64,000 nt of DNA, taken from assembly GCA_964349945.1 (NCBI GenBank), contig CAYGIH010000002.1, forward strand, positions 46,937-110,936, in the 5' to 3' direction. Below, in pieces: positions 28,390 to 58,004 of this stretch (position 1 is its first letter; each line of letters opens with the position of its first letter). Under the pieces are notes generated by a model that was not told the origin of the DNA, did not search any database, and saw only the letters and a list, made by a program, of their open reading frames with translations. The DNA is from an uncultured Candidatus Saccharibacteria bacterium. GTDB taxonomy: Bacteria; Patescibacteriota; Minisyncoccia; Phycocordibacterales; Zambryskibacteraceae. A program made the translations under genes and the position numbers.

Positions 28390-28650
28390 TTATTTATAAA
28401 AAATTTTATTTATTTCTAGTTTTTGGTTTGTTTTTAAATCTTTAATTATTAAATCTTCTTTCAATCTAATCTCGTTGTTTTTTATTGGGGTTGATTTTAT
28501 TTCAAGAATTGCATTTTTCAAATAAACTTCTTCTAAAGAAAGTTTGATTTTAGTCTTGTCCTCTATACACAAGATTATTTTTTCCTTTATGAAGGAATCA
28601 TTTCCTAATGATTTTTTAAATCTTTCTAATAATGAGCTTAGGTTTTTCAC
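28390..28650 (-). CDS. Small hypothetical protein downstream of dnaN
   Basis: 86-aa ORF, function unknown. Confidence 0.3.
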   Translation of the reverse strand: MKNLSSLLERFKKSLGNDSFIKEKIILCIEDKTKIKLSLEEVYLKNAILEIKSTPIKNNEIRLKEDLIIKDLKTNQKLEINKIFYK

Positions 28651-29750
28651 GATTTATTCATCGGCATCACTAGGTACATAAAGCTTTTATCTCCGACCCC
28701 TTCTACTACTATTGGCTTTGTTTGGCCGTTAAATCTCAAACTTATTGTGTCTCCAGAGATAGAGGCAAAGCTGTCTGTGAGGTATTTTTGGTTAATATTT
28801 ATAGACAAATCATCTCCTTCTACAACAGCGTCTATGTTGTATTTATTTTCTCCGATTGCTGTGTTTTTGGATTCTATTTCAAATAATTTTTTGGCTTTGG
28901 AAATCGTTATCCTTAGTTGATTAAAGGAATCTGAAAAAATCATGGCTGTTTTTAGTGAATTATTTAAGTCTTGTTTAAGAACCAACGATTTTGTTGTTGT
29001 CTCTTTTGGTATTATTTGTCTGTAATCAGGAAAAATACCTTCGATGATTCTTGAAGTTAAATATATTCCTCCTCCAAACATCGATATCTGGTTATCATGA
29101 ATAGAAAGAGAGACATCATCTTCGATTGAATCAAACACTCTTATTATTTCAGAAATATTCTTTTGTGGGATTAATATGTATTTGAAGTTTGGTGTTTTTT
29201 TAATTTTTATTTTCTTTTCTGCCAATCTAAATGAATCTGTGGCTGCGAATATTAAAAACTCATTCTCATGATAAATATAAACTGATGATAATTCTGGTTT
29301 CATACTCCCAATTGCTGCTGTATAGTTAACAGACTTTAAACCTAAAATAAAATCCTTTATAGGAAGGGTAAAATTTTCTTCATTTTTTAATGTGGGTATT
29401 ATAGGGAAATCTTCAGTTGGTAGTGTTTTTATATTTGTCTCTGTATTACCTGTTTTTACTAAAATTGTTTGCCCGCTCGTGTTAATAATTATATTTTTCT
29501 CTTTCGGTAAAGAATTTAAAAAAGAACTTATTACTTGAGCCGGAACAACAACTTCCCCCGGTTCAATAACCTTTACTGGTATTTTAGAAAAAAATCCCAA
29601 ATCAAGGTTCGTGGTTCTTATTGATAGAGTGTTGTTCTCAGCTTTAAAGTAAACTCCACTAAGAGAAGGAAGGGTTGGATTCTTTATAGCTATCTTTTCT
29701 GCTTTCCCTAATACCTCACTGAGCTTTTCTTTTATGCATTCTATTTTCAT
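28647..29750 (-). CDS. dnaN: DNA polymerase III beta sliding clamp
   Basis: Three-domain clamp, 367 aa, immediately downstream of dnaA. Confidence 0.85.
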   Translation of the reverse strand: MKIECIKEKLSEVLGKAEKIAIKNPTLPSLSGVYFKAENNTLSIRTTNLDLGFFSKIPVKVIEPGEVVVPAQVISSFLNSLPKEKNIIINTSGQTILVKTGNTETNIKTLPTEDFPIIPTLKNEENFTLPIKDFILGLKSVNYTAAIGSMKPELSSVYIYHENEFLIFAATDSFRLAEKKIKIKKTPNFKYILIPQKNISEIIRVFDSIEDDVSLSIHDNQISMFGGGIYLTSRIIEGIFPDYRQIIPKETTTKSLVLKQDLNNSLKTAMIFSDSFNQLRITISKAKKLFEIESKNTAIGENKYNIDAVVEGDDLSININQKYLTDSFASISGDTISLRFNGQTKPIVVEGVGDKSFMYLVMPMNKS

Positions 29751-29963
29751 ATATAAATACTTGTTACTACTATTAGTACTGTGGATATGGGGACAACAAA
29801 TCTATCTTTATTTTGGACCATATTTTTAAGAAAAGAAAAAACATGACTGGGGACAAGAACTAATAAGTGATTTATTGAAGTCATTAAAAACCAAAAGAAC
29901 AAAGAAAACATTGAGGGAATCAAGACTTTTTCCACAGTAATTTGGTTAGTTATCAACATAGTT
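29751..29963. promoter_or_regulatory. Candidate oriC segment (dnaA-dnaN intergenic) with DnaA-box-like 9-mers
   Basis: TGTGGATAT, TTTTCCACA, TTATCAACA and TTATCCTAT lie in an AT-rich 213-bp spacer. The 70-aa ORF called here is probably spurious. Confidence 0.45.
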
Positions 29964-31310
29964 TTATACAGATAATAGATTTCTTATCCTATCTATCTCT
30001 TGAGAAAGAAGAACATCTTCTTTAATGTCGTTTTTTATTTTTTCACAAGAGTGAATAACAGTCGTATGGTCTCTTCCCCCAAGTTTTTGACCAATAGAAG
30101 GGTAAGAAATACTAAAATCTTCCCTTAATAGATACATGATTACCTGACGAGGCTTGATTACTTCCTTTCTTCTTGTCTTTTCATAGATACTCTCTTCTTC
30201 AACTGAATAAAAATCAGAAACAATCTTTACTATATCTTTGATGGCAATGGTTTTCTTTGGTTTGGCATTATTCTTCACAAAATGACGGACATCCAAGAGA
30301 GAAATTTCCTTCCCTTTTAATTGGGATTGGATCACGAGGGTGTTTATTACCCCTTCAAGGTCACGGATGTTGCCATTAATTGAGTGAGCGAGATAATTAA
30401 TTATTTCATCTGACAGAGATAGTCCTTGGCTCTTGGCTTTGTTGGATAAAATAGCAATCCGAGACTCTTCATCTGGGGGAGGAATGTCCACGACCATCCC
30501 GGCAGAAAAACGAGACTTGAGTCGCTCTTCTAACCCAGTGATAAAGTGGGGGTGTTTATCGGAAGAAAAAATAATCTGCTTATTGTTGTCATATAGGGTG
30601 TTAAATAAATGGAAGAGCTCCTCTTGGAACTTTTGTTTGTCAGAAAAAAACTGAATGTCATCCATAATCAAAACATCATATTTTCTATATTTTTCTTTAA
30701 AAACGTTCATTTTTTGGTTTTGAAGGGCATTCATACAGTCCTGCCCGAATTTTTCTGAAGTCATGTAAAAGACTTTTTTATTTGGATTCATTGTCTTAAC
30801 ATAATTCCCAACAGCTTGGATTAGATGGGTCTTTCCATGCCCCGTTGAACCATAAATGAACAACGGGTTGTACATCAATCCAGGAGACTTCAATACAGCC
30901 TGAGCAGCTGCGTGTGCAAGTTGGTTAAATGGTCCTATTACAAACGTATCAAAGGTGTACCTTGGATTAAGGTTGTCTTCTTTATTTATCTGGGCTTCTG
31001 GAAGGGGCAACTCCTTTGAGCCGAATGGAATCTGGTTTGAAACAGTTTCCCTTCTTCTTGATTCTTCTTTATTAACAACATACTCAACCGCGTGTATAGA
31101 GCTTTCTAGGTTTCTAAGAGATTTTAGAATTGTGCTGTTATATTTTTGAATTAACCACTCCTTCACAAAAGCGTTTGGAACAGAAATCACCACCACACCA
31201 CCATCCTCTTTGACTATCCTTGTGTCTTTAAACCAAGTGGAAAAGTTTGCTTTAGAAACTGCAAGTTCTATTTCTACCAGAACGCCTTGCCATAGTTGTT
31301 TATAATCCAT
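29964..31310 (-). CDS. dnaA: Chromosomal replication initiator DnaA
   Basis: AAA+ Walker A GSTGHGKTHL and a C-terminal DNA-binding domain. Confidence 0.9.
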   Translation of the reverse strand: MDYKQLWQGVLVEIELAVSKANFSTWFKDTRIVKEDGGVVVISVPNAFVKEWLIQKYNSTILKSLRNLESSIHAVEYVVNKEESRRRETVSNQIPFGSKELPLPEAQINKEDNLNPRYTFDTFVIGPFNQLAHAAAQAVLKSPGLMYNPLFIYGSTGHGKTHLIQAVGNYVKTMNPNKKVFYMTSEKFGQDCMNALQNQKMNVFKEKYRKYDVLIMDDIQFFSDKQKFQEELFHLFNTLYDNNKQIIFSSDKHPHFITGLEERLKSRFSAGMVVDIPPPDEESRIAILSNKAKSQGLSLSDEIINYLAHSINGNIRDLEGVINTLVIQSQLKGKEISLLDVRHFVKNNAKPKKTIAIKDIVKIVSDFYSVEEESIYEKTRRKEVIKPRQVIMYLLREDFSISYPSIGQKLGGRDHTTVIHSCEKIKNDIKEDVLLSQEIDRIRNLLSV

Positions 31311-31409
31311 ACTGATATTGTTGTGCTAGTAGTATATCCTCGGGGAGCACAGAGCAAAACTTGATAAGGTGGTTAAAACTGTTTATAATGTGTGTATAAC
31401 TAAAAAGAG

Positions 31410-31544
31410 ATGTCTACAACATATCAACCAAAAAAACGCAAGAGAGCGAGAGCCCACGGATTTTTAAAAAGAGCAAAAACCACAGGGGGAAGACGCACAG
31501 TTAAGGCTAGAAGAAGAAAAGGACGAGCAAAATTAACGGTATAA
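31410..31544 (+). CDS. rpmH: 50S ribosomal protein L34
   Basis: [44 protein letters not shown]. It is below the length cutoff of the ORF track. Confidence 0.85.
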
Positions 31545-31545
31545 C

Positions 31546-31872
31546 ATGCTTCCAAAGAAATTGAGAATTAAGAGAGAGCTCTACAAAGAGCTTCTTTCTG
31601 GTTCACGCTTTGTGCACTCTACTCATTTCTCATTAAGGTTTAAGGGGATAAAAAGTGGAAACAGTCTGGTTGGCGTATCTGTGTCAAAAAAGGTGGCTAA
31701 AAGCGCTGTCGCAAGGAACACAACCAGGAGAAGAGTGTATTCTGCTGTTGCACTACAAATAAAAAACCAACAAGGATATTTATTATTATTTGTAGCCAAA
31801 AAAGGGGCAGAAACCCTTAGAGGAGAAAAACTTGAGACAGAAATAAAACAACTATTTTCTGAATTAAAGTAA
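31546..31872 (+). CDS. rnpA: RNase P protein component
   Basis: Sits between rpmH and yidC; a basic 108-aa protein. Confidence 0.8.
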   Translation: MLPKKLRIKRELYKELLSGSRFVHSTHFSLRFKGIKSGNSLVGVSVSKKVAKSAVARNTTRRRVYSAVALQIKNQQGYLLLFVAKKGAETLRGEKLETEIKQLFSELK

Positions 31873-31909
31873 GATTGTTTTTGGGTTTCAAAAAGGATAC
31901 AATTCTTAA

Positions 31910-52657: not shown

Positions 52658-52709
52658 CTAAAAACAATAGCATATAAGCCAATATTAAGCAAGTAAGCCG
52701 TTTTAGATA

Positions 52710-52735
52710 TAAAAAAGCCCGGTTTTACCCGGGCT
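52710..52735 (-). terminator. Intrinsic terminator after the DGQHR gene
   Basis: AGCCCGG ttttac CCGGGCT followed by a U-run on the minus strand. Confidence 0.65.
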
Positions 52736-52747
52736 GAAGGACAGACC

Positions 52748-53830
52748 TTATTCGGTCGGCTCTTCCGACTCATCCATGGACACAGCATCACCACGGCGAG
52801 AACGGATCCTCTTGGTCCGCTTGCCACTGTTGATGTGGTCACGCATGAGGATGTAGAGCATGTCAGCAGCCTTACCGTTGCCGGTGGCCAGACTGACGAT
52901 CTGCGGGTCGTTGATCGGGAAGAGAGAAATCTTGCGACGAAGCGACGCTTCGACGGTCAAGACCTTCTCATCCGACTCACGCCAGAAATCGTAATGATCC
53001 GACATGAGACGAGCGAGCACGTTCAGAAAGGTGCTCTTCACGTAGATGGCACCTTCACGATACTGGATGCGCTTGATTCCCCAGCACTCATCAACGAGCT
53101 GGAAAAAGGTCTTGGTATTCGATCGAAGGATCTGAACACCGAAGACATCAACCGCCTTATCGAGAGCAGGCACCAGTTCGTCAACGGAAGTCCGTCGCGC
53201 TGGAGCCTTGTGCGAATGCAGGTGACCAACCACCTTGAGCATGGTGAGAGCGGAGATGAGCTCCCCGCGGGTCATCCGCTGATTCCACGAGACACGGTCA
53301 TTCAGCGGGAAGCCCTTGTCGCTCGTCGAGAGCGAATAGAGGGTTGCCACTGAAGAACTGTCCTCTCGCCTGTTGCGCAGAATCACATTCGGCGACACCT
53401 TGTTGCGCAAGGTGTTCAAGATGCGGAAACGCTCCCGTTCCCACTCCTTGGTTGTGCCGAAGTGAATAGTCGCACCGAGTCGCACCTGCGCAGCTGAGTT
53501 CTGGGCCAGGAAGTGGATCGCACCATTGACGCGCTGAAGGCCGTCGATGATGTAAACCTCGTCCTTGAGCAGAGCCGTACCTTCCCTTTCGGAAAAGTTC
53601 TCACCGCGCATGCCGAGTTCGATGTCAGGAAGAGTTTCCCCTCCCTTGAGGGCTCCCAGAATGCTACTGAGAGCAGTGATCGGCGCAGCCTCACGCTGGT
53701 AGTCGTCGATCTTCAGGTGGACCAGACTATTCTGGTCGACCACACCACGCAGGACGATTTCCCCCTTTGGGGTTTCGTCGAGAGCGCAGTGGATGATGCG
53801 GATAGGCGCATCAGCCTTACGTGCGTTCAT
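52748..53830 (-). CDS. DGQHR/ParB-like-nuclease-fold protein (DndB/DUF262-related), GC-rich
   Basis: The motif YIIDGLQRVNGAIHFL matches the DGQ(H/Q)R signature of DndB/DUF262 ParB-fold proteins. The start was set at MNARKA, which follows a GGAG RBS. The CDS is strongly GC-rich. Confidence 0.55.
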   Translation of the reverse strand: MNARKADAPIRIIHCALDETPKGEIVLRGVVDQNSLVHLKIDDYQREAAPITALSSILGALKGGETLPDIELGMRGENFSEREGTALLKDEVYIIDGLQRVNGAIHFLAQNSAAQVRLGATIHFGTTKEWERERFRILNTLRNKVSPNVILRNRREDSSSVATLYSLSTSDKGFPLNDRVSWNQRMTRGELISALTMLKVVGHLHSHKAPARRTSVDELVPALDKAVDVFGVQILRSNTKTFFQLVDECWGIKRIQYREGAIYVKSTFLNVLARLMSDHYDFWRESDEKVLTVEASLRRKISLFPINDPQIVSLATGNGKAADMLYILMRDHINSGKRTKRIRSRRGDAVSMDESEEPTE

Positions 53831-53930
53831 TGCCCATCTCCATGTAATTGGGCTGTGAAAGAGCATCTCGGAGCAGTAGACTCAAAATGGTCTCTTATGT
53901 CCGAGGATTCGTCAACCGACGAAATCAAGA

Positions 53931-53962
53931 CGATTTTTACATATTTGTAGAGGGTTTGTCAA
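53931..53962 (-). promoter_or_regulatory. Sigma70-like promoter (TTGACA, ~17-nt spacer, TAAAAA/AAAAAT) for the DGQHR gene
   Basis: The reverse complement reads TTGACAaaccctctacaaatatgTAAAAAtcg. Confidence 0.4.
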
Positions 53963-53977
53963 TTATAAAATTAAGCA

Positions 53978-54019
53978 AAAGAAAACCGCGTTGCAGAGAA
54001 GGTTCTCTCTGCAACGCGG
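53978..54019 (-). terminator. Intrinsic terminator after the Pro-rich membrane protein gene
   Basis: Perfect 14-bp stem CCGCGTTGCAGAGA/TCTCTGCAACGCGG followed by a U-run. Confidence 0.65.
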
Positions 54020-54044
54020 GTACTAAGGTGCTTTGATTCTGGTG

Positions 54045-54848
54045 TTACGAACGCGCCGGCGGTGGCAACACGATGCGAGTGCCGTCCTCGTAGAAGAGAA
54101 CGACCTCATGCCGAACTGGCATAACGATCGACGGAGCCGGTGCCGGGGTCGGGGCAGGAACCGGAACGACAGGAGCCGGCGGAGCGACCACTGGGGTCGG
54201 CGTCGCGGGCACAGGCGTCGGTGCCGGAGCAACCGGAGCGGGTGCTGGCGTCTTGGGCGGAGTGTTCCGTCCGTTCAACCAGTTCCACAACTCACTCAGG
54301 AACCAGAAGATGACCGCGAGGAGCAGACCCAGGAAGAGAATGCTCAGCAGGAACTTGAAGAGGTCCCAAAGCCAGTTGGCGGCCCGTTCGAACCAGCCCC
54401 CATTCTGCTTTGCGAGCGTCTTGTTCACCGCCGTGTAGAGCTCCTTGTTCTGCTCCTTCATGGTGGCGACTTGCCGTTCGAGGTCCGCGAGCATCTCGCG
54501 ACATTTCGGGCACTCGCTCGCCTTCACGATGCGGTTGGTGCAATCCGCTTTGTAGCGGAGCGTACCATCCTGGTCGGCCCACACGATCGTGCCGCGCACG
54601 AGCGTCTCGAGGACGAAACGATTCGTGTTGTTGAAGTAGTTGAGCACCGTGACGGTGTCAGCGAGCTCAACGGCGTGCAGACCGAGCTTGGCCTGCATGG
54701 CCGGGGTCATCTCGCCCTGCTTCATGATCGGGTACTTGTTCAGCTCGGCCTCGGCCGGCGCTGCGTACGTTCCCCGCTGAGCCAGAGCGTTAGACGCTCC
54801 ACCGAAGGTGAGGACGACGATGAACATGGACAGCAAATACTTGCGCAT
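54045..54848 (-). CDS. GC-rich signal-peptide protein with an extracytoplasmic domain, a single TM helix and a Pro/Ala/Val/Thr-rich C-terminal tail
   Basis: MRKYLLSMFIVVLTFGGASNALA signal peptide, TM FKFLLSILFLGLLLAVIFWFL, and a PAPAPVAPAPTPVPATPTPVVAPPAPVV tail. Confidence 0.5.
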   Translation of the reverse strand: MRKYLLSMFIVVLTFGGASNALAQRGTYAAPAEAELNKYPIMKQGEMTPAMQAKLGLHAVELADTVTVLNYFNNTNRFVLETLVRGTIVWADQDGTLRYKADCTNRIVKASECPKCREMLADLERQVATMKEQNKELYTAVNKTLAKQNGGWFERAANWLWDLFKFLLSILFLGLLLAVIFWFLSELWNWLNGRNTPPKTPAPAPVAPAPTPVPATPTPVVAPPAPVVPVPAPTPAPAPSIVMPVRHEVVLFYEDGTRIVLPPPARS

Positions 54849-55006
54849 TTGTAGCTCCGTGGTGTGTGGTCTCTGAGTTGCGAACGATTCGCAACCAATG
54901 AATCAAAGTAAAGGTTCTTCGCACTATCTTTTTTAATATTAGCATATTCAAACCTATTTGTCAATAGAGCAAATAAAGCCTATAAATATGAGTAAATGTT
55001 ATAATA

Positions 55007-55939
55007 TTGTGCGACATGGCTACGACAGAACTTGAAAATTTAAAACGGCAATTTCTCGAACACACGGAGATTGAGAGAGGTCGTGCACTCAAAACTATTG
55101 AGAACTATGATCACTATCTCACTCGGTTTTTAACTTTTTCTAAAGCAAAGAATGCAAAGGATATAGATGAAAGTTTAATTAGAGAATTTAGGTTGTGGTT
55201 GAACAGACAATCAACAGGCAACAATAGAGCGACGAGGCAAACTCTTTCTAAAAAGACTCAGAATTATTATATGATTGCTCTTCGTGCGTTTTTAAAATTT
55301 TTGGCCAAAAAAGGAATCAAATCTCTTTCACCGGAAGTAATAGAATTAGCAAAAGTGCCTGAACGACACCTCGACCTCATCTCCCCTTCTGAACTCACTC
55401 GACTCCTCGATGCACCGAAGGGTGATGATTTAATTTCTCTCCGAGATAGAGCCATCTTAGAATTATTTTTCTCTACCGGTCTTCGTGTTTCTGAACTTGC
55501 GTCGCTTACAAATGATTTGGATTTAAAGGCTGATGAATTTTCTATCAGAGGTAAGGGCAGTAAAGTGCGTGTAGTTTTCCTTTCGGACGAAGCCAAGGAT
55601 GCTTTGAAGAAATATTTGGCTGCGAGGAAAGATATGAGTGATGCGATGTTTGTCTCTGTGGGTGGTGAGTCTAAGAAGAAAGAACCCACCCAACTCACTC
55701 GTCGGTCCATAGAGAGGTTAGTCAAAAAATATGCTATTAAGGCTGGGATATCGAAGAAAGTTACTCCTCACGTTATCCGCCACTCCTTCGCCACTGACCT
55801 ACTCTCGAACGGTGCAGACATAAGAAGTGTCCAAATGCTCCTTGGCCACGCGAACATCTCTACTACGCAGATTTATACACATGTGACAGACAAAGCCCTT
55901 CGAGACACCCACAAAAAATTCCACACAAGGAGAAAATAG
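55007..55939 (+). CDS. xerC: Tyrosine site-specific recombinase, XerC/XerD type
   Basis: C-terminal catalytic region HVIRHSFAT...LLGHANISTTQIYTHV with the catalytic Tyr. Confidence 0.8.
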   Translation: MCDMATTELENLKRQFLEHTEIERGRALKTIENYDHYLTRFLTFSKAKNAKDIDESLIREFRLWLNRQSTGNNRATRQTLSKKTQNYYMIALRAFLKFLAKKGIKSLSPEVIELAKVPERHLDLISPSELTRLLDAPKGDDLISLRDRAILELFFSTGLRVSELASLTNDLDLKADEFSIRGKGSKVRVVFLSDEAKDALKKYLAARKDMSDAMFVSVGGESKKKEPTQLTRRSIERLVKKYAIKAGISKKVTPHVIRHSFATDLLSNGADIRSVQMLLGHANISTTQIYTHVTDKALRDTHKKFHTRRK

Positions 55940-55945
55940 AATCGC

Positions 55946-55975
55946 TTGACAAATTCTGTGAAAGGTGTATTATTG
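55946..55975 (+). promoter_or_regulatory. Sigma70-like promoter (TTGACA-16-TATTAT) driving a non-coding transcript
   Basis: cTTGACAaattctgtgaaaggtgTATTATtg. Confidence 0.5.
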
Positions 55976-55979
55976 TACT

Positions 55980-56241
55980 TGGAAAGCAAAATCCCTCGTA
56001 ATCCGAGCTGTGAGTAAGTTTCTCTGAGTCTGGGCTCTGAATAGCCAGAATCAGTACTCACTAGGCCAATAGGCGGGTTTTAGGCTGATAGGTGTAGCGT
56101 TTGTGGTTAGGAAACAAGTCCACCACAGCGTGAATACTGTCAGCTGTGTTCAAATAAACTCTCTAATTTGAGAGCGATATACATACCGATTAGCAGAAAT
56201 GTTACAAAGCCCGCATCCAATTGGACGCGGGTTGATTTTTT
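55980..56241 (+). ncRNA. Candidate small RNA (~260 nt) bracketed by a promoter and an intrinsic terminator; identity unresolved
   Basis: No ORF of 60 aa or more. The terminator CCCGCATCC aatt GGACGCGGG is followed by TTGATTTTTT. An internal segment GAGTCTGGGCTCTGAATAGCCAG faintly resembles RNase P RNA CR-I (AGUCCGGGCUCCAUAGGGCAG). Confidence 0.35.
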
Positions 56242-56351
56242 ATATATCAATCACAAAAAATTCCATTCTAGAAGGAAATAGAGGTATAAATATAGGTTTT
56301 ATTGACTATTTACGGATTGATTTTTGTCCTGTTTTGGTGTATTATGGAGAG

Positions 56352-56650
56352 TAGTTTTCGATTGGATGCATCAATTTTGTCGATTTTTCTTACTTAGTGA
56401 CCTAAACGAGGAGAGGGGTCCGTTAGAAGATAAATCTGTCACAATTGACCCCGTTATGACAGGAATTCACCAATGGCATACATATGTCGGATGTGGATCA
56501 CTTTGAGAAACGGTAAGAAATACCGAAGACCAGATGGCAAGCCAATCTGTTGGGAGAACAGCAAATCTCCTAAAAAGGAAATCCCATCACTGGATGATGG
56601 GATGACCAAAGCTTAAGTTTGAAGGTAAAATCGTCCTCAGGGGCGGTTTT
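56352..56650 (+). ncRNA. Second candidate non-coding transcript downstream of a TTGATT-17-TATTAT promoter
   Basis: Several hairpins (CTGTCA...TGACAG; CCCATCA ctgga TGATGGG) with no convincing ORF. No clear terminator, so the 3' end is uncertain. Confidence 0.25.
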
Positions 56651-56722
56651 ACTTAACTAAGTTTACCTTATATATAATTATATATCTAATATATTGGGGA
56701 TAGCTCAAACACTTGAAAATAT

Positions 56723-56752
56723 TTGACAAAACTGGGTTGTTAGGTATATAAT
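56723..56752 (+). promoter_or_regulatory. Consensus sigma70 promoter (TTGACA-18-TATAAT) upstream of nusA, with a 5'-UTR hairpin
   Basis: TTGACAaaactgggttgttaggtaTATAAT. The leader forms the hairpin GAAGTTCGCC tcac GGCGGACTTC. Confidence 0.55.
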
Positions 56753-56825
56753 ACTGAGGTAATAAGTTTACGAGAAGTTCGCCTCACGGCGGACTTCTTT
56801 GTTAGAAGATTAATATATAAACATC

Positions 56826-58004
56826 ATGTTTGATCTAAAAGTCATCAATTCAGTCTTAGGAGAACTCGAAGAACTTCGAGGTATTCCTCGTGCCAAAATT
56901 ATTGAAGCCATAGAATCTGCTCTAGCCACTGCTTATAAAAAGGAGTACGGCAAACGCGGACAAATAATCAGAACTACTTTTGATGTGAAGACTGGTGAAA
57001 CCCATTTCTTCCAAGTGAAGGTGGTTGTGGATGATACTCGTGTCATCTTCCCTGAAGAAGCAGCTCGATTAGAAGATGAGGCCAATGAAAATCCAGAAGC
57101 CGCAGAAGAAAAGGCTGATGAAAGAGTTTTATACAATCCAGAACAACATATTCTCCTTGCAGATGCGAAGAAAATCAAACGTGATGCCCAACTTGATGAA
57201 GAAATAATCTTCCCTATTGAATCCAAGGGTGACTACGGACGCATCGCTGCTCAAACTGCGAAGCAAGTGATAATGCAAAAGATTCGTGAAGCAGAAAAAG
57301 TTTCTGTCTTTGCAGAATTTGGACAACGAGAGGGTCAAATAGTGAGCGGGACAGTAGAACGTATTGAACGAGGCAACATTTTCGTGAACCTCGGACGTGC
57401 TCCTGGACTTCTCTCATATGAAGAACAAATACCTGGAGAGAGATTTAACCAAGGTGAACGAGTACGAGCCTATCTTTATAGAGTAGAAGAATCTCCACGC
57501 GGAGTATTCCTCAGACTTTCGAGGAGCCATCCAAAATTCCTAGAGAAACTCTTTGAAGCAGAATCACCAGAACTACAAAATGGTGCTGTTGTTATAAAAG
57601 CCGTGGCTCGTGAAGCAGGTTATCGTTCGAAGATTGCAGGCTTCGCCACAGATTCTCACATTGACCCAGTTGGAGCCCTAGTTGGCCAACGTGGAGTGAG
57701 GGTTTCTACAGTAATGTCTGAAATCCGTGGAGAAAAGATTGATGTCATAGAGTGGAACGAAGATCCAAAGAAATTTATCGAAGAGGCTCTCTCCCCAGCT
57801 AAAATCTTGGACATTAAGATAAACGAAGAGGACAAATCAGCTACAGTAAACGTGTCTGAAGATCAGCAATCTCTAGCCATAGGTAAAGGTGGACAGAATG
57901 TTCGCCTTGCAGCCAAGCTCACAGGTTGGAAGATTGATATCCAATCAGCAAAGGGTGAAGAACTGGCTACCGCAGATGCTGAAGCGGTTCCAGAAACAAA
58001 CTAA
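56826..58004 (+). CDS. nusA: Transcription termination/antitermination factor NusA
   Basis: N-terminal domain, S1 domain and two KH domains (GKGGQNVRLAAKLTGW). Confidence 0.9.
   Translation: MFDLKVINSVLGELEELRGIPRAKIIEAIESALATAYKKEYGKRGQIIRTTFDVKTGETHFFQVKVVVDDTRVIFPEEAARLEDEANENPEAAEEKADERVLYNPEQHILLADAKKIKRDAQLDEEIIFPIESKGDYGRIAAQTAKQVIMQKIREAEKVSVFAEFGQREGQIVSGTVERIERGNIFVNLGRAPGLLSYEEQIPGERFNQGERVRAYLYRVEESPRGVFLRLSRSHPKFLEKLFEAESPELQNGAVVIKAVAREAGYRSKIAGFATDSHIDPVGALVGQRGVRVSTVMSEIRGEKIDVIEWNEDPKKFIEEALSPAKILDIKINEEDKSATVNVSEDQQSLAIGKGGQNVRLAAKLTGWKIDIQSAKGEELATADAEAVPETN

What the first reader, a model, noticed from the sequence alone, without database searches (positions are those of the whole stretch)
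55940..56825. An 880-bp gene-free stretch upstream of nusA with three promoters and two candidate sRNAs
In an otherwise tightly packed genome this region has no credible ORF. It contains (i) TTGACA-16-TATTAT at 55946 followed ~260 nt later by a strong terminator at 56208-56241, (ii) TTGATT-17-TATTAT at 56317 followed by ~300 nt with several stable hairpins, and (iii) a consensus TTGACA-18-TATAAT nusA promoter with a 5'-UTR hairpin. The first transcript has a segment (GAGTCTGGGCTCTGAATAGCCAG) faintly reminiscent of RNase P RNA CR-I, but it lacks the other universal blocks. Its identity is open: it could be a reduced RNase P RNA, a 6S-like RNA or a novel sRNA.
Basis: partly seen in the sequence, partly recalled or inferred. 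Interest (0 to 1): 0.55.

Follow-up and report, generated by a model that had tools for sequence, protein, structure and literature searches.

The report
Mosaic insertion hot spot upstream of nusA
The 886-bp "gene-free" stretch is a patchwork: a small recent insertion carrying an orphan non-coding transcript, an overlooked gene for a conserved 47-residue protein, and the real nusA promoter with a conserved leader hairpin; it is not an RNase P, 6S or other housekeeping RNA locus.

Summary
The sequence features are real: an 886-bp gap between a Xer-family recombinase gene and nusA, three good sigma-70 promoters and stable hairpins. The interpretation mostly fails. No Rfam family matches. The first two units have no homologue upstream of nusA in 160 related Parcubacteria loci. 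There the same gap is either about 100 bp or filled with unrelated cargo, such as Doc toxin-antitoxin pairs or a tRNA.

- **Unit 1 (55941-56251):** lies between a 31-nt imperfect direct repeat of the recombinase gene's 3' end. The downstream copy is the displaced ancestral end. A second lineage (L094) has the same layout around a Doc cassette. Unit 1 is therefore a recent, probably site-specific, insertion. It carries a promoter, a roughly 260-nt ORF-free, well-folding transcript and a terminator. It is an orphan of unknown role.
- **Unit 2:** an mRNA, not an sRNA. ORF 56473-56616 belongs to a 14-member microprotein family under clear purifying selection, usually found next to mobile-element genes.
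- **Unit 3:** the orthologous nusA promoter plus a hairpin (GUUCGCC-N4-GGCGRAC, U-rich tail). The hairpin is present upstream of nusA in 104 of 156 relatives. It is a clade-specific counterpart of the rimP-leader attenuator.

Modest interest.

The parts
55007..55939 (+). Xer-family tyrosine recombinase gene (310 aa). Its last 31 nt (55910-55940) form the left copy of the direct repeat.
   Evidence: Pfam Phage_integrase plus SAM-like N-domains. NCBIfam matches XerD/XerC/XerA models, and only NF040815 (XerA/integron-integrase type) passes its cut-off. It lies directly upstream of nusA in 25 loci, counting the window's own contig L081.
55910..55940 (+). Direct repeat copy 1 (attL-like): the current 3' end of the recombinase gene, HKKFHTRRK*.
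   Evidence: D1, 31 nt, 84% to copy 2. The best match is 26/31, against a maximum of 23 in 2000 shuffles.
55946..55973 (+). Promoter P1 (TTGACA-16-TATTAT), carried by the insertion.
   Evidence: 11/12. It sits 6 nt after the stop codon, as the nusA promoter does in 'empty' relatives.
55980..56241 (+). Predicted transcript of unit 1 (el1): about 260 nt, no credible ORF, multi-stem fold, ending in the terminator hairpin 56208-56231 plus U-run to 56241.
   Evidence: Fold z -4.25, or -2.79 without the terminator. GC is 43.5% against 23-40% for other intergenic stretches, and the z-score is at about the 2nd-5th percentile of 44 background windows. The longest ORFs are 20-37 aa. There is no homologue anywhere searched.
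56252..56282 (+). Direct repeat copy 2 (attR-like): the displaced ancestral 3' end of the recombinase gene, HKKFHSRRK*.
   Evidence: It matches the clade consensus at 28/29 and the real gene ends of L094, L091 and L002 at 90-97%.
56317..56345 (+). Promoter P2 (TTGATT-17-TATTAT) of the microprotein gene.
   Evidence: 9/12.
56473..56616 (+). Microprotein gene (47 aa, MAYICRMWITLRNGKKYRRPDGKPICW plus a hydrophilic tail).
   Evidence: There are 13 homologues (alignment A6). In the 24-codon core, Arg9 uses 6 codons and Arg16 uses 5, and pairwise codon differences are 469 synonymous against 179 nonsynonymous. The AF2 core has pLDDT 82-90.
56626..56655 (+). Terminator hairpin of the microprotein gene (AAAAUCGUCC-UCAG-GGGCGGUUUU).
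   Evidence: Homologous loci also have a hairpin plus U-run directly after the ORF, and L162 shares GGGGCGGTTT.
56723..56752 (+). Promoter P3 (TTGACA-18-TATAAT): the orthologous nusA promoter.
   Evidence: 12/12. It aligns with the promoters of L097 and L008, sharing TTAGGTATATAATA...GGTAATA.
56772..56799 (+). Conserved nusA-leader hairpin (GAGAAGUUCGCC-UCAC-GGCGGACUUCUU, pairs 56772-56783 with 56788-56799), followed by UUGUUAG.
   Evidence: The motif lies within 450 nt upstream of nusA in 104 of 156 loci. It is almost absent elsewhere and occurs once in the 64-kb window. In 47 sequences, 85.8% of cells are paired, the 7-bp core is always paired, U-A alternates with U.G, and 6 pairs show double changes.
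56826..58004 (+). nusA (392 aa).
   Evidence: Pfam NusA_N, S1, KH_5.

Best explanation
The stretch is a lineage-specific filling of a hypervariable insertion hot spot between a Xer-family recombinase gene and nusA. It consists of three unrelated units.

**Unit 1 (55941-56251).** This is a recent insertion. It entered at the 3' end of the recombinase gene, most likely by tyrosine-recombinase-type site-specific recombination (inferred). The insert supplied a new gene end (copy 1 of the repeat). It pushed the ancestral end 342 nt downstream (copy 2). Its cargo is one self-contained transcription unit: a near-consensus promoter, a roughly 260-nt GC-enriched, well-folding, ORF-free RNA and an intrinsic terminator. 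I take it to be an accessory, cassette-borne small RNA that is made in the cell. Its target and role are unknown and it has no relatives.

**Unit 2 (56317-56655).** This is an ordinary small gene with a promoter, a 125-nt leader, a 47-codon ORF and a terminator. It encodes a conserved microprotein that travels with mobile elements.

**Unit 3 (56723-56825).** This is the ancestral nusA promoter with a conserved leader hairpin and a U-rich tail. It most likely works as a NusA-responsive transcription attenuator, that is, negative feedback on nusA (inferred by analogy).
For: **Hot spot**
- The recombinase gene lies directly upstream of nusA in 25 loci, counting the window's own contig.
- The gap is 83-131 nt in 10 loci and 200-3525 nt in 15.
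- Cargo includes AbrB-type antidote plus Doc toxin (L006, L032, L087, L090), another Doc pair (L094), other genes (L083, L085, L086, L004, L024) and a tRNA (L001).

**Insertion of unit 1**
- The 31-nt repeat matches 26/31, against a maximum of 23 in 2000 shuffles.
- The downstream copy matches the clade consensus at 28/29 and encodes the consensus ...HSRRK*.
- L094 independently has a 37-nt repeat (89%) of its own gene end, flanking a Doc cassette.

**Unit 1 RNA**
- The promoter scores 11/12.
- Fold z is -4.25, GC is 43.5%, and it sits at about the 2nd-5th percentile of the genome background.
- No ORF exceeds 37 aa, and there is no protein relic.

**Unit 2**
- 13 homologues were found.
- The core shows many synonymous codon changes.
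- Neighbours include an IS1595 transposase, a viral Rep plus serine recombinase, and a T4SS-type ATPase.

**Unit 3**
- The hairpin is specific to nusA leaders.
- G.U pairs occur only on the nusA strand, and the stem shows covariation.
- A U-run follows the hairpin in most relatives.
- The rimP-leader precedent with proposed NusA feedback is described in PMC2965389.
- B. subtilis nusA is autoregulated by NusA-stimulated termination in its leader (PMC12288461, citing Mondal 2016).
Against: **Unit 1**
- It exists in one genome only. No sequence more than 90% identical to this NusA exists in the 15-billion-protein collection. Neither conservation nor covariation can therefore be tested.
- The minus strand folds almost as well.
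- A young insertion need not be functional.

**Recombination mechanism**
- Only 2 of the 15 filled loci show the repeat.
- The repeated site is only weakly palindromic.
- No third repeat marks the right end of unit 2, so its mode of arrival is unknown.

**Other limits**
- The attenuator role of the hairpin rests on analogy. In the window's own clade the U-tract is interrupted (UUGUUAG).
- No expression data are available.
Confidence: 0.6

Rival explanations
1. Unit 1 is a housekeeping or otherwise known RNA: a reduced RNase P RNA, a 6S RNA, tmRNA, SRP RNA or a riboswitch.
For: It is promoter- and terminator-bounded, ORF-free and well folded.
Against: - No Rfam family matches 55975-56203, even at E<=10 with permissive filters.
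- ARAGORN finds no tmRNA.
- The MFE fold is a multi-branch structure, not a 6S-like rod.
- It is absent from the same locus in all relatives, and it lies inside a recent insertion.
- An essential RNA would not be strain-specific cargo.
Confidence: 0.02
2. Unit 1 is a non-functional relic: the promoter and terminator of a decayed cassette (for example a toxin-antitoxin pair) whose genes were lost. Any RNA made has no role.
For: - The same hot spot mostly holds protein-coding cassettes of 600-900 nt, and five of the 15 filled loci carry Doc pairs.
- Unit 1 is half that size and an orphan.
- Both strands fold about equally well.
Against: - tblastn of all cargo proteins from relatives finds no relic in 55941-56251. 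The best chance-level hits have E of about 0.001-0.03 over 9-19 residues.
- The promoter and terminator are intact.
- The displaced gene end is still near-consensus, so there has been little time for decay.
- GC content and folding are above the intergenic background.
Confidence: 0.28
3. Unit 1 is a type I toxin-antitoxin-like pair. The minus-strand 36-aa ORF (56140-56250) with a hydrophobic core would be the toxin, and the plus-strand RNA its antisense antitoxin.
For: - The ORF reads MIYKKSTRVQLDAGFVTFLLIGMYIALKLESLFEHS, with a 15-19-residue hydrophobic stretch.
- The hot spot favours addiction modules.
Against: - No promoter-like site is found on the minus strand for this ORF.
- It has a TTG start and a weak Shine-Dalgarno sequence.
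- The hydrophobic segment is short for a membrane helix.
- No homologues are known, and the ORF runs through the terminator hairpin.
Confidence: 0.05
4. The repeat was produced by homology-facilitated illegitimate recombination with DNA from a related strain, not by site-specific recombination. The homologous anchor would lie in the recombinase gene, and the illegitimate join 31 nt before the resident stop codon.
For: - The left edge of the insert resembles the junction of a related genome (recombinase gene end plus a nusA-type promoter). P1 resembles the nusA promoter of L012.
- Most filled loci lack the repeat.
- The site is only about 25 kb from dnaA, so it is not a terminus-type dif site.
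Against: - Two lineages with different cargo have remnants of nearly the same length (31 and 37 nt), ending at the same position just past the stop codon. Random joins would not be expected to do this.
- The adjacent gene encodes a recombinase of the right family.
Confidence: 0.25
5. The gene-free stretch is the replication origin or another DNA-level element.
For: Coding-strand orientation and GC skew change sign near 55 kb.
Against: - Only one DnaA box with a single mismatch lies in 55940-56825.
- dnaA-dnaN lie at 28.6-31.3 kb, with a box cluster and a 600-nt gap beside them.
- The gap shrinks to about 100 bp in ten relatives.
Confidence: 0.01

Closest known systems
rimP-leader (Naville & Gautheret 2010, PMC2965389; to my recollection it is an Rfam family, which I did not verify)
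   Same: - A short hairpin with unusual sequence conservation in its stem.
- Usually followed by a U-stretch.
- No visible antiterminator.
- Located in the 5' leader of the operon that contains nusA, 17-383 nt before the start codon.
- Proposed to be read by NusA for feedback.
- B. subtilis nusA is autoregulated by NusA-stimulated leader termination (PMC12288461).
   Different: - The conserved stem is GUUCGCC...GGCGRAC, not GGGc...gCCC.
- There is no rimP gene; nusA follows directly.
- No Rfam model, rimP-leader included, matches the window hairpin even at E<=10.
- In the window's subclade the stem is extended and the U-tract is interrupted.
Xer-dependent mobile modules (Acinetobacter dif modules, PMC6449649 and PMC7399989) and IMEX elements (recalled from my own knowledge)
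   Same: - Small cargo units, often toxin-antitoxin pairs.
- Bounded by copies of a short recombination site.
- Lacking their own recombinase.
- Presumed to be moved by a host Xer-family enzyme.
   Different: - Here the repeated site is the last 31-37 nt of the recombinase gene itself, in direct orientation.
- It is not a recognisable 11-6-11 dif site.
- It is on a chromosome about 25 kb from dnaA.
- One unit carries only a non-coding transcript.
- Recombination was not demonstrated.
Integrative elements that target the 3' end of a gene and restore it with their own copy (classical attL/attR duplication; my own knowledge)
   Same: The target gene stays intact through an element-borne 3' end. 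The displaced original end is left at the far side as a direct repeat.
   Different: The insert is only 342 bp and has no integrase. The target is the recombinase gene itself.
Integron gene cassettes (my own knowledge)
   Same: A tyrosine recombinase gene lies beside a site where small, unrelated, often addiction-type cassettes accumulate.
   Different: - The site is at the 3' end and co-oriented, rather than a divergent attI with a Pc promoter.
- No attC-like imperfect palindromes were found.
- The units carry their own promoters.
- At most one or two units are present per locus.

Membership tests
Bacterial RNase P RNA | Match to the RNaseP_bact_a/b covariance models (universal CR-I to CR-V blocks, P4 helix) | tested here: not met
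   There is no hit at the gathering score or at E<=10 on 55850-56900.
Bacterial RNase P RNA | Conserved, essential, present in relatives | tested here: not met
   It is absent from the homologous locus of 160 relatives, and no CM, nhmmer or blastn match was found in 1.2 Mb. It lies inside a recent insertion.
6S RNA | Rod-like, largely double-stranded fold with a central bubble; match to the 6S model | tested here: not met
   The MFE and centroid folds are multi-branched with three or more independent stems. There is no Rfam hit.
tmRNA / SRP RNA / riboswitches | Match to the family covariance model or to ARAGORN | tested here: not met
rimP-leader attenuator | Located in the 5' leader of the nusA-containing operon | tested here: met
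   The hairpin ends 26 nt before the nusA ATG. The median distance is 46.5 nt across 104 loci. There is no rimP gene here.
rimP-leader attenuator | Short terminator hairpin plus U-stretch, without an antiterminator | tested here: met
   The stem is paired in all 47 aligned sequences. A U-run of 5-8 follows in most, and UUGUUAG follows in the window.
rimP-leader attenuator | Conserved GGGc(...)gCCC stem motif, and a match to an Rfam model | tested here: not met
   The stem is GUUCGCC...GGCGRAC. No Rfam family other than weak sRNA or terminator-like hits matches at E<=10.
rimP-leader attenuator | NusA-dependent termination or feedback | not testable with these tools
   This needs in vitro transcription with and without NusA, or expression data.
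Xer/dif module or IMEX | Cargo flanked by two copies of the recombination site | tested here: met
   There are 31-nt copies at 55910 and 56252 and 37-nt copies in L094.
Xer/dif module or IMEX | Site with two inverted 11-bp arms around a 6-8-bp spacer, recognised by Xer | tested here: inconclusive
   The site is only a weak palindrome (ATTCCATTCTAGAAGGAAAT, 8 of 10 pairs, I10). The sequence is also constrained by coding.
Xer/dif module or IMEX | Recombinase-catalysed excision or integration | not testable with these tools
   This needs biochemical or genetic assays, or circular-junction reads.
Type II toxin-antitoxin (Phd/Doc) | Doc/Fic toxin and antidote genes | tested here: not met
   These genes are present in relatives' hot spots. 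No gene or relic is found in the window.
Microprotein family ICRMxITLRNGKKYRRPDGKPICW (unnamed) | Conserved 24-residue core under purifying selection, variable acidic tail, own terminator | tested here: met
   No Pfam, NCBIfam, PHROG, PADLOC or PDB relative was found.

The most novel reading that the evidence does not exclude
In this Parcubacteria clade, the 3' end of the Xer-family recombinase gene is a dedicated capture site. The recombinase would insert miniature, promoter-bearing cassettes there (Doc addiction modules, a suppressor-type tRNA, a microprotein gene). Unit 1 would then be the first RNA-only cassette of such a system: a mobile, structured roughly 260-nt sRNA with a function of its own, for example an RNA antitoxin or a regulator.
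Probability: 0.12. Interest if true: 0.6.

Novelty: new variant of a known kind. Interest (0 to 1): 0.35.

Why it matters
- **Annotation.** A tempting candidate for a missing housekeeping RNA in a reduced CPR genome is removed. A real but uncalled microprotein gene takes the place of the second 'sRNA'.
- **Insertion site.** In one Parcubacteria clade, accessory cargo enters repeatedly between a Xer-type recombinase gene and nusA. In two lineages the recombinase gene's own end is duplicated. This is a testable hint of Xer-mediated cassette capture in organisms whose mobile-element biology is poorly known.
- **nusA leader.** The hairpin GUUCGCC...GGCGRAC extends the rimP-leader idea to the candidate phyla radiation. 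That idea is a sequence-specific leader terminator through which NusA may sense its own level. The different sequence signature could help define what NusA recognises.

Tried and rejected
**Searches for a known RNA**
- Rfam at gathering score on the whole window, and at E<=10 on the region, gave nothing relevant.
- ARAGORN found only the seven tRNAs elsewhere in the window.

**Searches for homologues of units 1 and 2**
- blastn and nhmmer against 161 loci (160 relatives plus the window's own contig, 1.09 Mb) matched only the leader hairpin and the recombinase-gene-end remnant.
- Two 21-mers of unit 1 against viral contigs, and a 22-mer against metagenome contigs, gave nothing.
- blastn against phage and plasmid collections gave nothing.
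- A single-sequence covariance model of 55988-56145, run over 1.2 Mb of loci and the window, matched only itself.

**Other tests that found nothing**
- tblastn of all cargo ORFs from relatives against the gap found no pseudogene relic.
- A search for a third recombinase-gene-end remnant to the right of unit 2 found none.
- The oriC idea failed: there is no DnaA-box cluster, and dnaA lies 25 kb away.
- Closer strains were sought for covariation, but the 90% NusA cluster has a single member.

**Microprotein function**
- Pfam, NCBIfam, PHROGs and PADLOC gave nothing.
- The AF2 model plus Foldseek against PDB gave no match with E<1.
- A viral-contig scan found no relatives.

**Idea rejected**
- I considered whether unit 1 is the upstream leader of the microprotein module. 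Other loci have a conserved hairpin upstream of the ORF, but it does not align with unit 1, and the displaced gene end lies between the two units.

**Searches left unused**
- I ran no further search on spurious ORFs of unit 1, because the expected yield was low.
Full report
**Setting.** The window comes from a Parcubacteria (Zambryskibacteria/Paceibacteria-like) genome of about 38% GC. The best NusA matches in genome and metagenome collections are 84% identical. An identical contig exists in a Logan assembly (L081). The finding covers the gap between a Xer-family tyrosine recombinase gene (55007-55939, +) and nusA (56826-58004, +).

**Observation.**
- The gap is 886 nt and is the largest ORF-poor stretch in the window.
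- The three promoters are at the stated coordinates, scoring 11/12, 9/12 and 12/12.
- The hairpins at 56208-56241, 56626-56655 and 56772-56799 are real in RNAfold. The simple terminator scan missed the first two on the + strand, because of one mismatch in the first and stem over-extension in the second.
- Both proposed transcripts fold better than shuffles, with z -4.25 and -4.14. The reverse strand of the first gives -4.13.
- Against 44 random 271-nt windows of the same genome, the first unit ranks at about the 2nd-5th percentile. Its GC (43.5%) exceeds that of other intergenic stretches, which range from 23% to 40%.

**No known RNA.** Rfam 15 gives only seven tRNAs elsewhere in the window at the gathering score. 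At E<=10 the region gives only weak terminator-like matches, none covering 55975-56203. ARAGORN finds no tmRNA. The RNase P, 6S, SRP and riboswitch readings are therefore not supported.

**The gap is a hypervariable hot spot.**
- The recombinase gene lies directly upstream of nusA in 25 loci, counting the window's own contig.
- In ten loci the gap is 83-131 nt. It then holds only a TTGACAAA-type promoter a few bases after the stop codon, followed by a hairpin and nusA.
- In the other fifteen the gap is 200-3525 nt with unrelated content:
  - AbrB-type antidote plus Doc toxin in L006, L032, L087 and L090
  - another Doc pair in L094
  - two 120-aa ORFs in the closest relative, L086
  - a TrpR/YerC-like gene and a desuccinylase-like gene in L083 and L085
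  - other genes in L004 and L024
  - a tRNA with anticodon UUA in L001
- Nothing in 55941-56700 matches any of these loci by blastn, nhmmer or a covariance model. Nothing matches viral, metagenome, phage or plasmid collections either.
- No genome with NusA more than 90% identical exists in the 15-billion-protein collection. Short-range conservation therefore cannot be examined.

**Unit 1 is an insertion.**
- The last 31 nt of the recombinase gene (55910-55940) recur at 56252-56282, matching 26/31. The maximum in 2000 shuffles of the gap is 23.
- The downstream copy encodes ...HKKFHSRRK*. It matches the clade consensus at 28/29 and the true gene ends of L094, L091 and L002 at 90-97%. The copy that now completes the gene is the odd one (...HTRRK*).
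- The two copies are identical over their first 14 nt and differ after that. This fits a crossover in that core, with an element-derived right arm at the gene and the ancestral right arm displaced (inference).
- L094 is a different lineage (NusA 80%, recombinase 76% identical). It has the same layout: a 37-nt repeat (89%) of its own gene end, 621 nt apart, enclosing a Doc toxin pair.
- Two independent cases ending at the same position argue for site-specific insertion at the gene's 3' end.
- Homology-facilitated illegitimate recombination remains a rival, for three reasons. Only 2 of the 15 filled loci keep a repeat. The site is only weakly palindromic. The left edge of the insert resembles another genome's gene-end-plus-nusA-promoter junction.
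- The site is about 25 kb from dnaA-dnaN, so it is not a terminus-type dif site.

**Cargo of unit 1.** The cargo is promoter P1, a roughly 260-nt ORF-free transcript and a terminator. The longest ORFs are 20-37 aa and none is convincing. No relic of relatives' cargo proteins is detectable. An antisense 36-aa ORF has a hydrophobic core, but no promoter was found for it. I conclude that unit 1 is a recently acquired, self-contained non-coding transcription unit. Whether its RNA has a role cannot be decided with one sequence.

**Unit 2 is a protein gene.**
- ORF 56473-56616 has a homologue in a different genomic context (P0001 in L162). Its codons for ITLRNGKKYRRPDGKPICW are changed only synonymously, including AGA to CGT twice.
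- Profile searches give 13 small homologues of 43-67 aa.
- Across ten loci, Arg9 uses six codons, Arg16 five, and Thr7, Leu8 and Gly19 four each. Pairwise codon differences are 469 synonymous against 179 nonsynonymous.
- The conserved I-C upstream of Met7 supports the ATG at 56473 as the start.
- AlphaFold gives a confident small beta-sheet for residues 1-30 and a disordered tail.
- No fold or family match exists.
- Neighbours are often mobile-element genes: an IS1595 transposase, a viral Rep plus serine recombinase, a T4SS-type ATPase and a holin. Host GC ranges widely. The gene therefore looks like mobile cargo.
- Other loci have a conserved long hairpin plus U-run 100-140 nt upstream of the ORF. 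The window copy lacks it.
- The gene was not called in the public assembly.

**Unit 3 is the ancestral nusA control region.**
- P3 aligns with the nusA promoters of L097 and L008.
- The hairpin motif GUUCGCC-N3-7-GGCGRRC occurs upstream of nusA in 104 of 156 loci with enough flank. The median distance to the ATG is 46.5 nt. It is almost absent elsewhere in 637 kb and occurs once in the 64-kb window.
- In 47 aligned sequences, 85.8% of cells pair, against 37-53% when partners are slid. The 7-bp core always pairs. The 3' arm switches between A and G opposite U, giving wobble pairs on the nusA strand only. Six pairs show changes on both sides.
- Most relatives follow the stem with a run of 5-8 U.

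**Closest precedent for unit 3.** The closest precedent is the rimP-leader, a sequence-conserved terminator (GGGc...gCCC) upstream of rimP-nusA-infB with proposed NusA feedback (PMC2965389). B. subtilis nusA is autoregulated by NusA-stimulated termination in its leader (PMC12288461). The element here has a different stem sequence, has no rimP gene, and is not matched by any Rfam model. I call it a clade-specific variant that probably works the same way, which is an inference.

**Rejected alternatives.** An origin of replication is excluded by the lack of DnaA boxes, the position of dnaA, and the roughly 100-bp gap in relatives.

**Verdict.** The region is a mosaic of a recent orphan non-coding insertion, a missed microprotein gene and a conserved nusA leader attenuator. 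Interest is modest. The most promising threads are possible Xer-linked cassette capture at the recombinase gene's own 3' end, and the new sequence flavour of the nusA leader hairpin.

Noticed in passing
window 52700-54900: A segment of 54-58% GC sits in a 38% GC genome. It has two minus-strand ORFs (52748-53866, 372 aa; 54045-54848, 267 aa, with a signal-peptide-like start and a Pro/Ala-rich tail) that have no Pfam match. The 267-aa ORF was also run by tblastn against the 80 genome relatives' loci and matched none. This looks like a foreign island lying directly upstream of the recombinase gene and divergent from it.
   Followed up: partly
window 28647-31909: dnaN (28647-29750, -) and dnaA (29964-31310, -) are here, with three near-consensus DnaA boxes at 29780-29958. 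A 600-nt ORF-free gap lies upstream of dnaA. This is the likely replication origin.
   Followed up: partly
L001 3542-3618: The closest genome relative carries a tRNA with anticodon UUA in the same recombinase-nusA hot spot. The anticodon would read the UAA stop codon (ARAGORN 'tRNA-Stop'; Rfam tRNA score 58.7 bits).
   Followed up: no
L162 3255-3345; L163 about 2790-2905; L166 about 2810-2880; also L172, L173, L175: A conserved long hairpin plus U-run (AAAGAACCCnTAGGACAACTGG ... CCAGTGTGTCCnnGGGCTTTTTTG) lies 100-140 nt upstream of the microprotein ORF. It shows many compensatory changes between loci. It is a candidate attenuator or small RNA, and it is absent from the window copy.
   Followed up: partly
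window 56140-56250 (-): A 36-aa antisense ORF inside unit 1 has a 15-19-residue hydrophobic core and looks like a type I toxin. No promoter-like site was found for it.
   Followed up: partly
L094 1468-2119: About 650 nt without a credible ORF lie between the displaced recombinase-gene end and the nusA promoter. The stretch contains several terminator-like hairpins. It may be another non-coding filling of the hot spot.
   Followed up: no
window 56581-56603: A perfect 10-bp hairpin inside the microprotein ORF reads as a minus-strand terminator (followed by TTCCTTTTTA) in the simple scan.
   Followed up: no
P0005, P0012 and other long hits: The microprotein core (C-x-ITLRNG..RPDGKPICW) resembles the repeat unit ...HTCALRxDGSPICWG of long multi-repeat proteins. 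From memory these look like RCC1-type repeats. The microprotein may be a single-blade relative.
   Followed up: no
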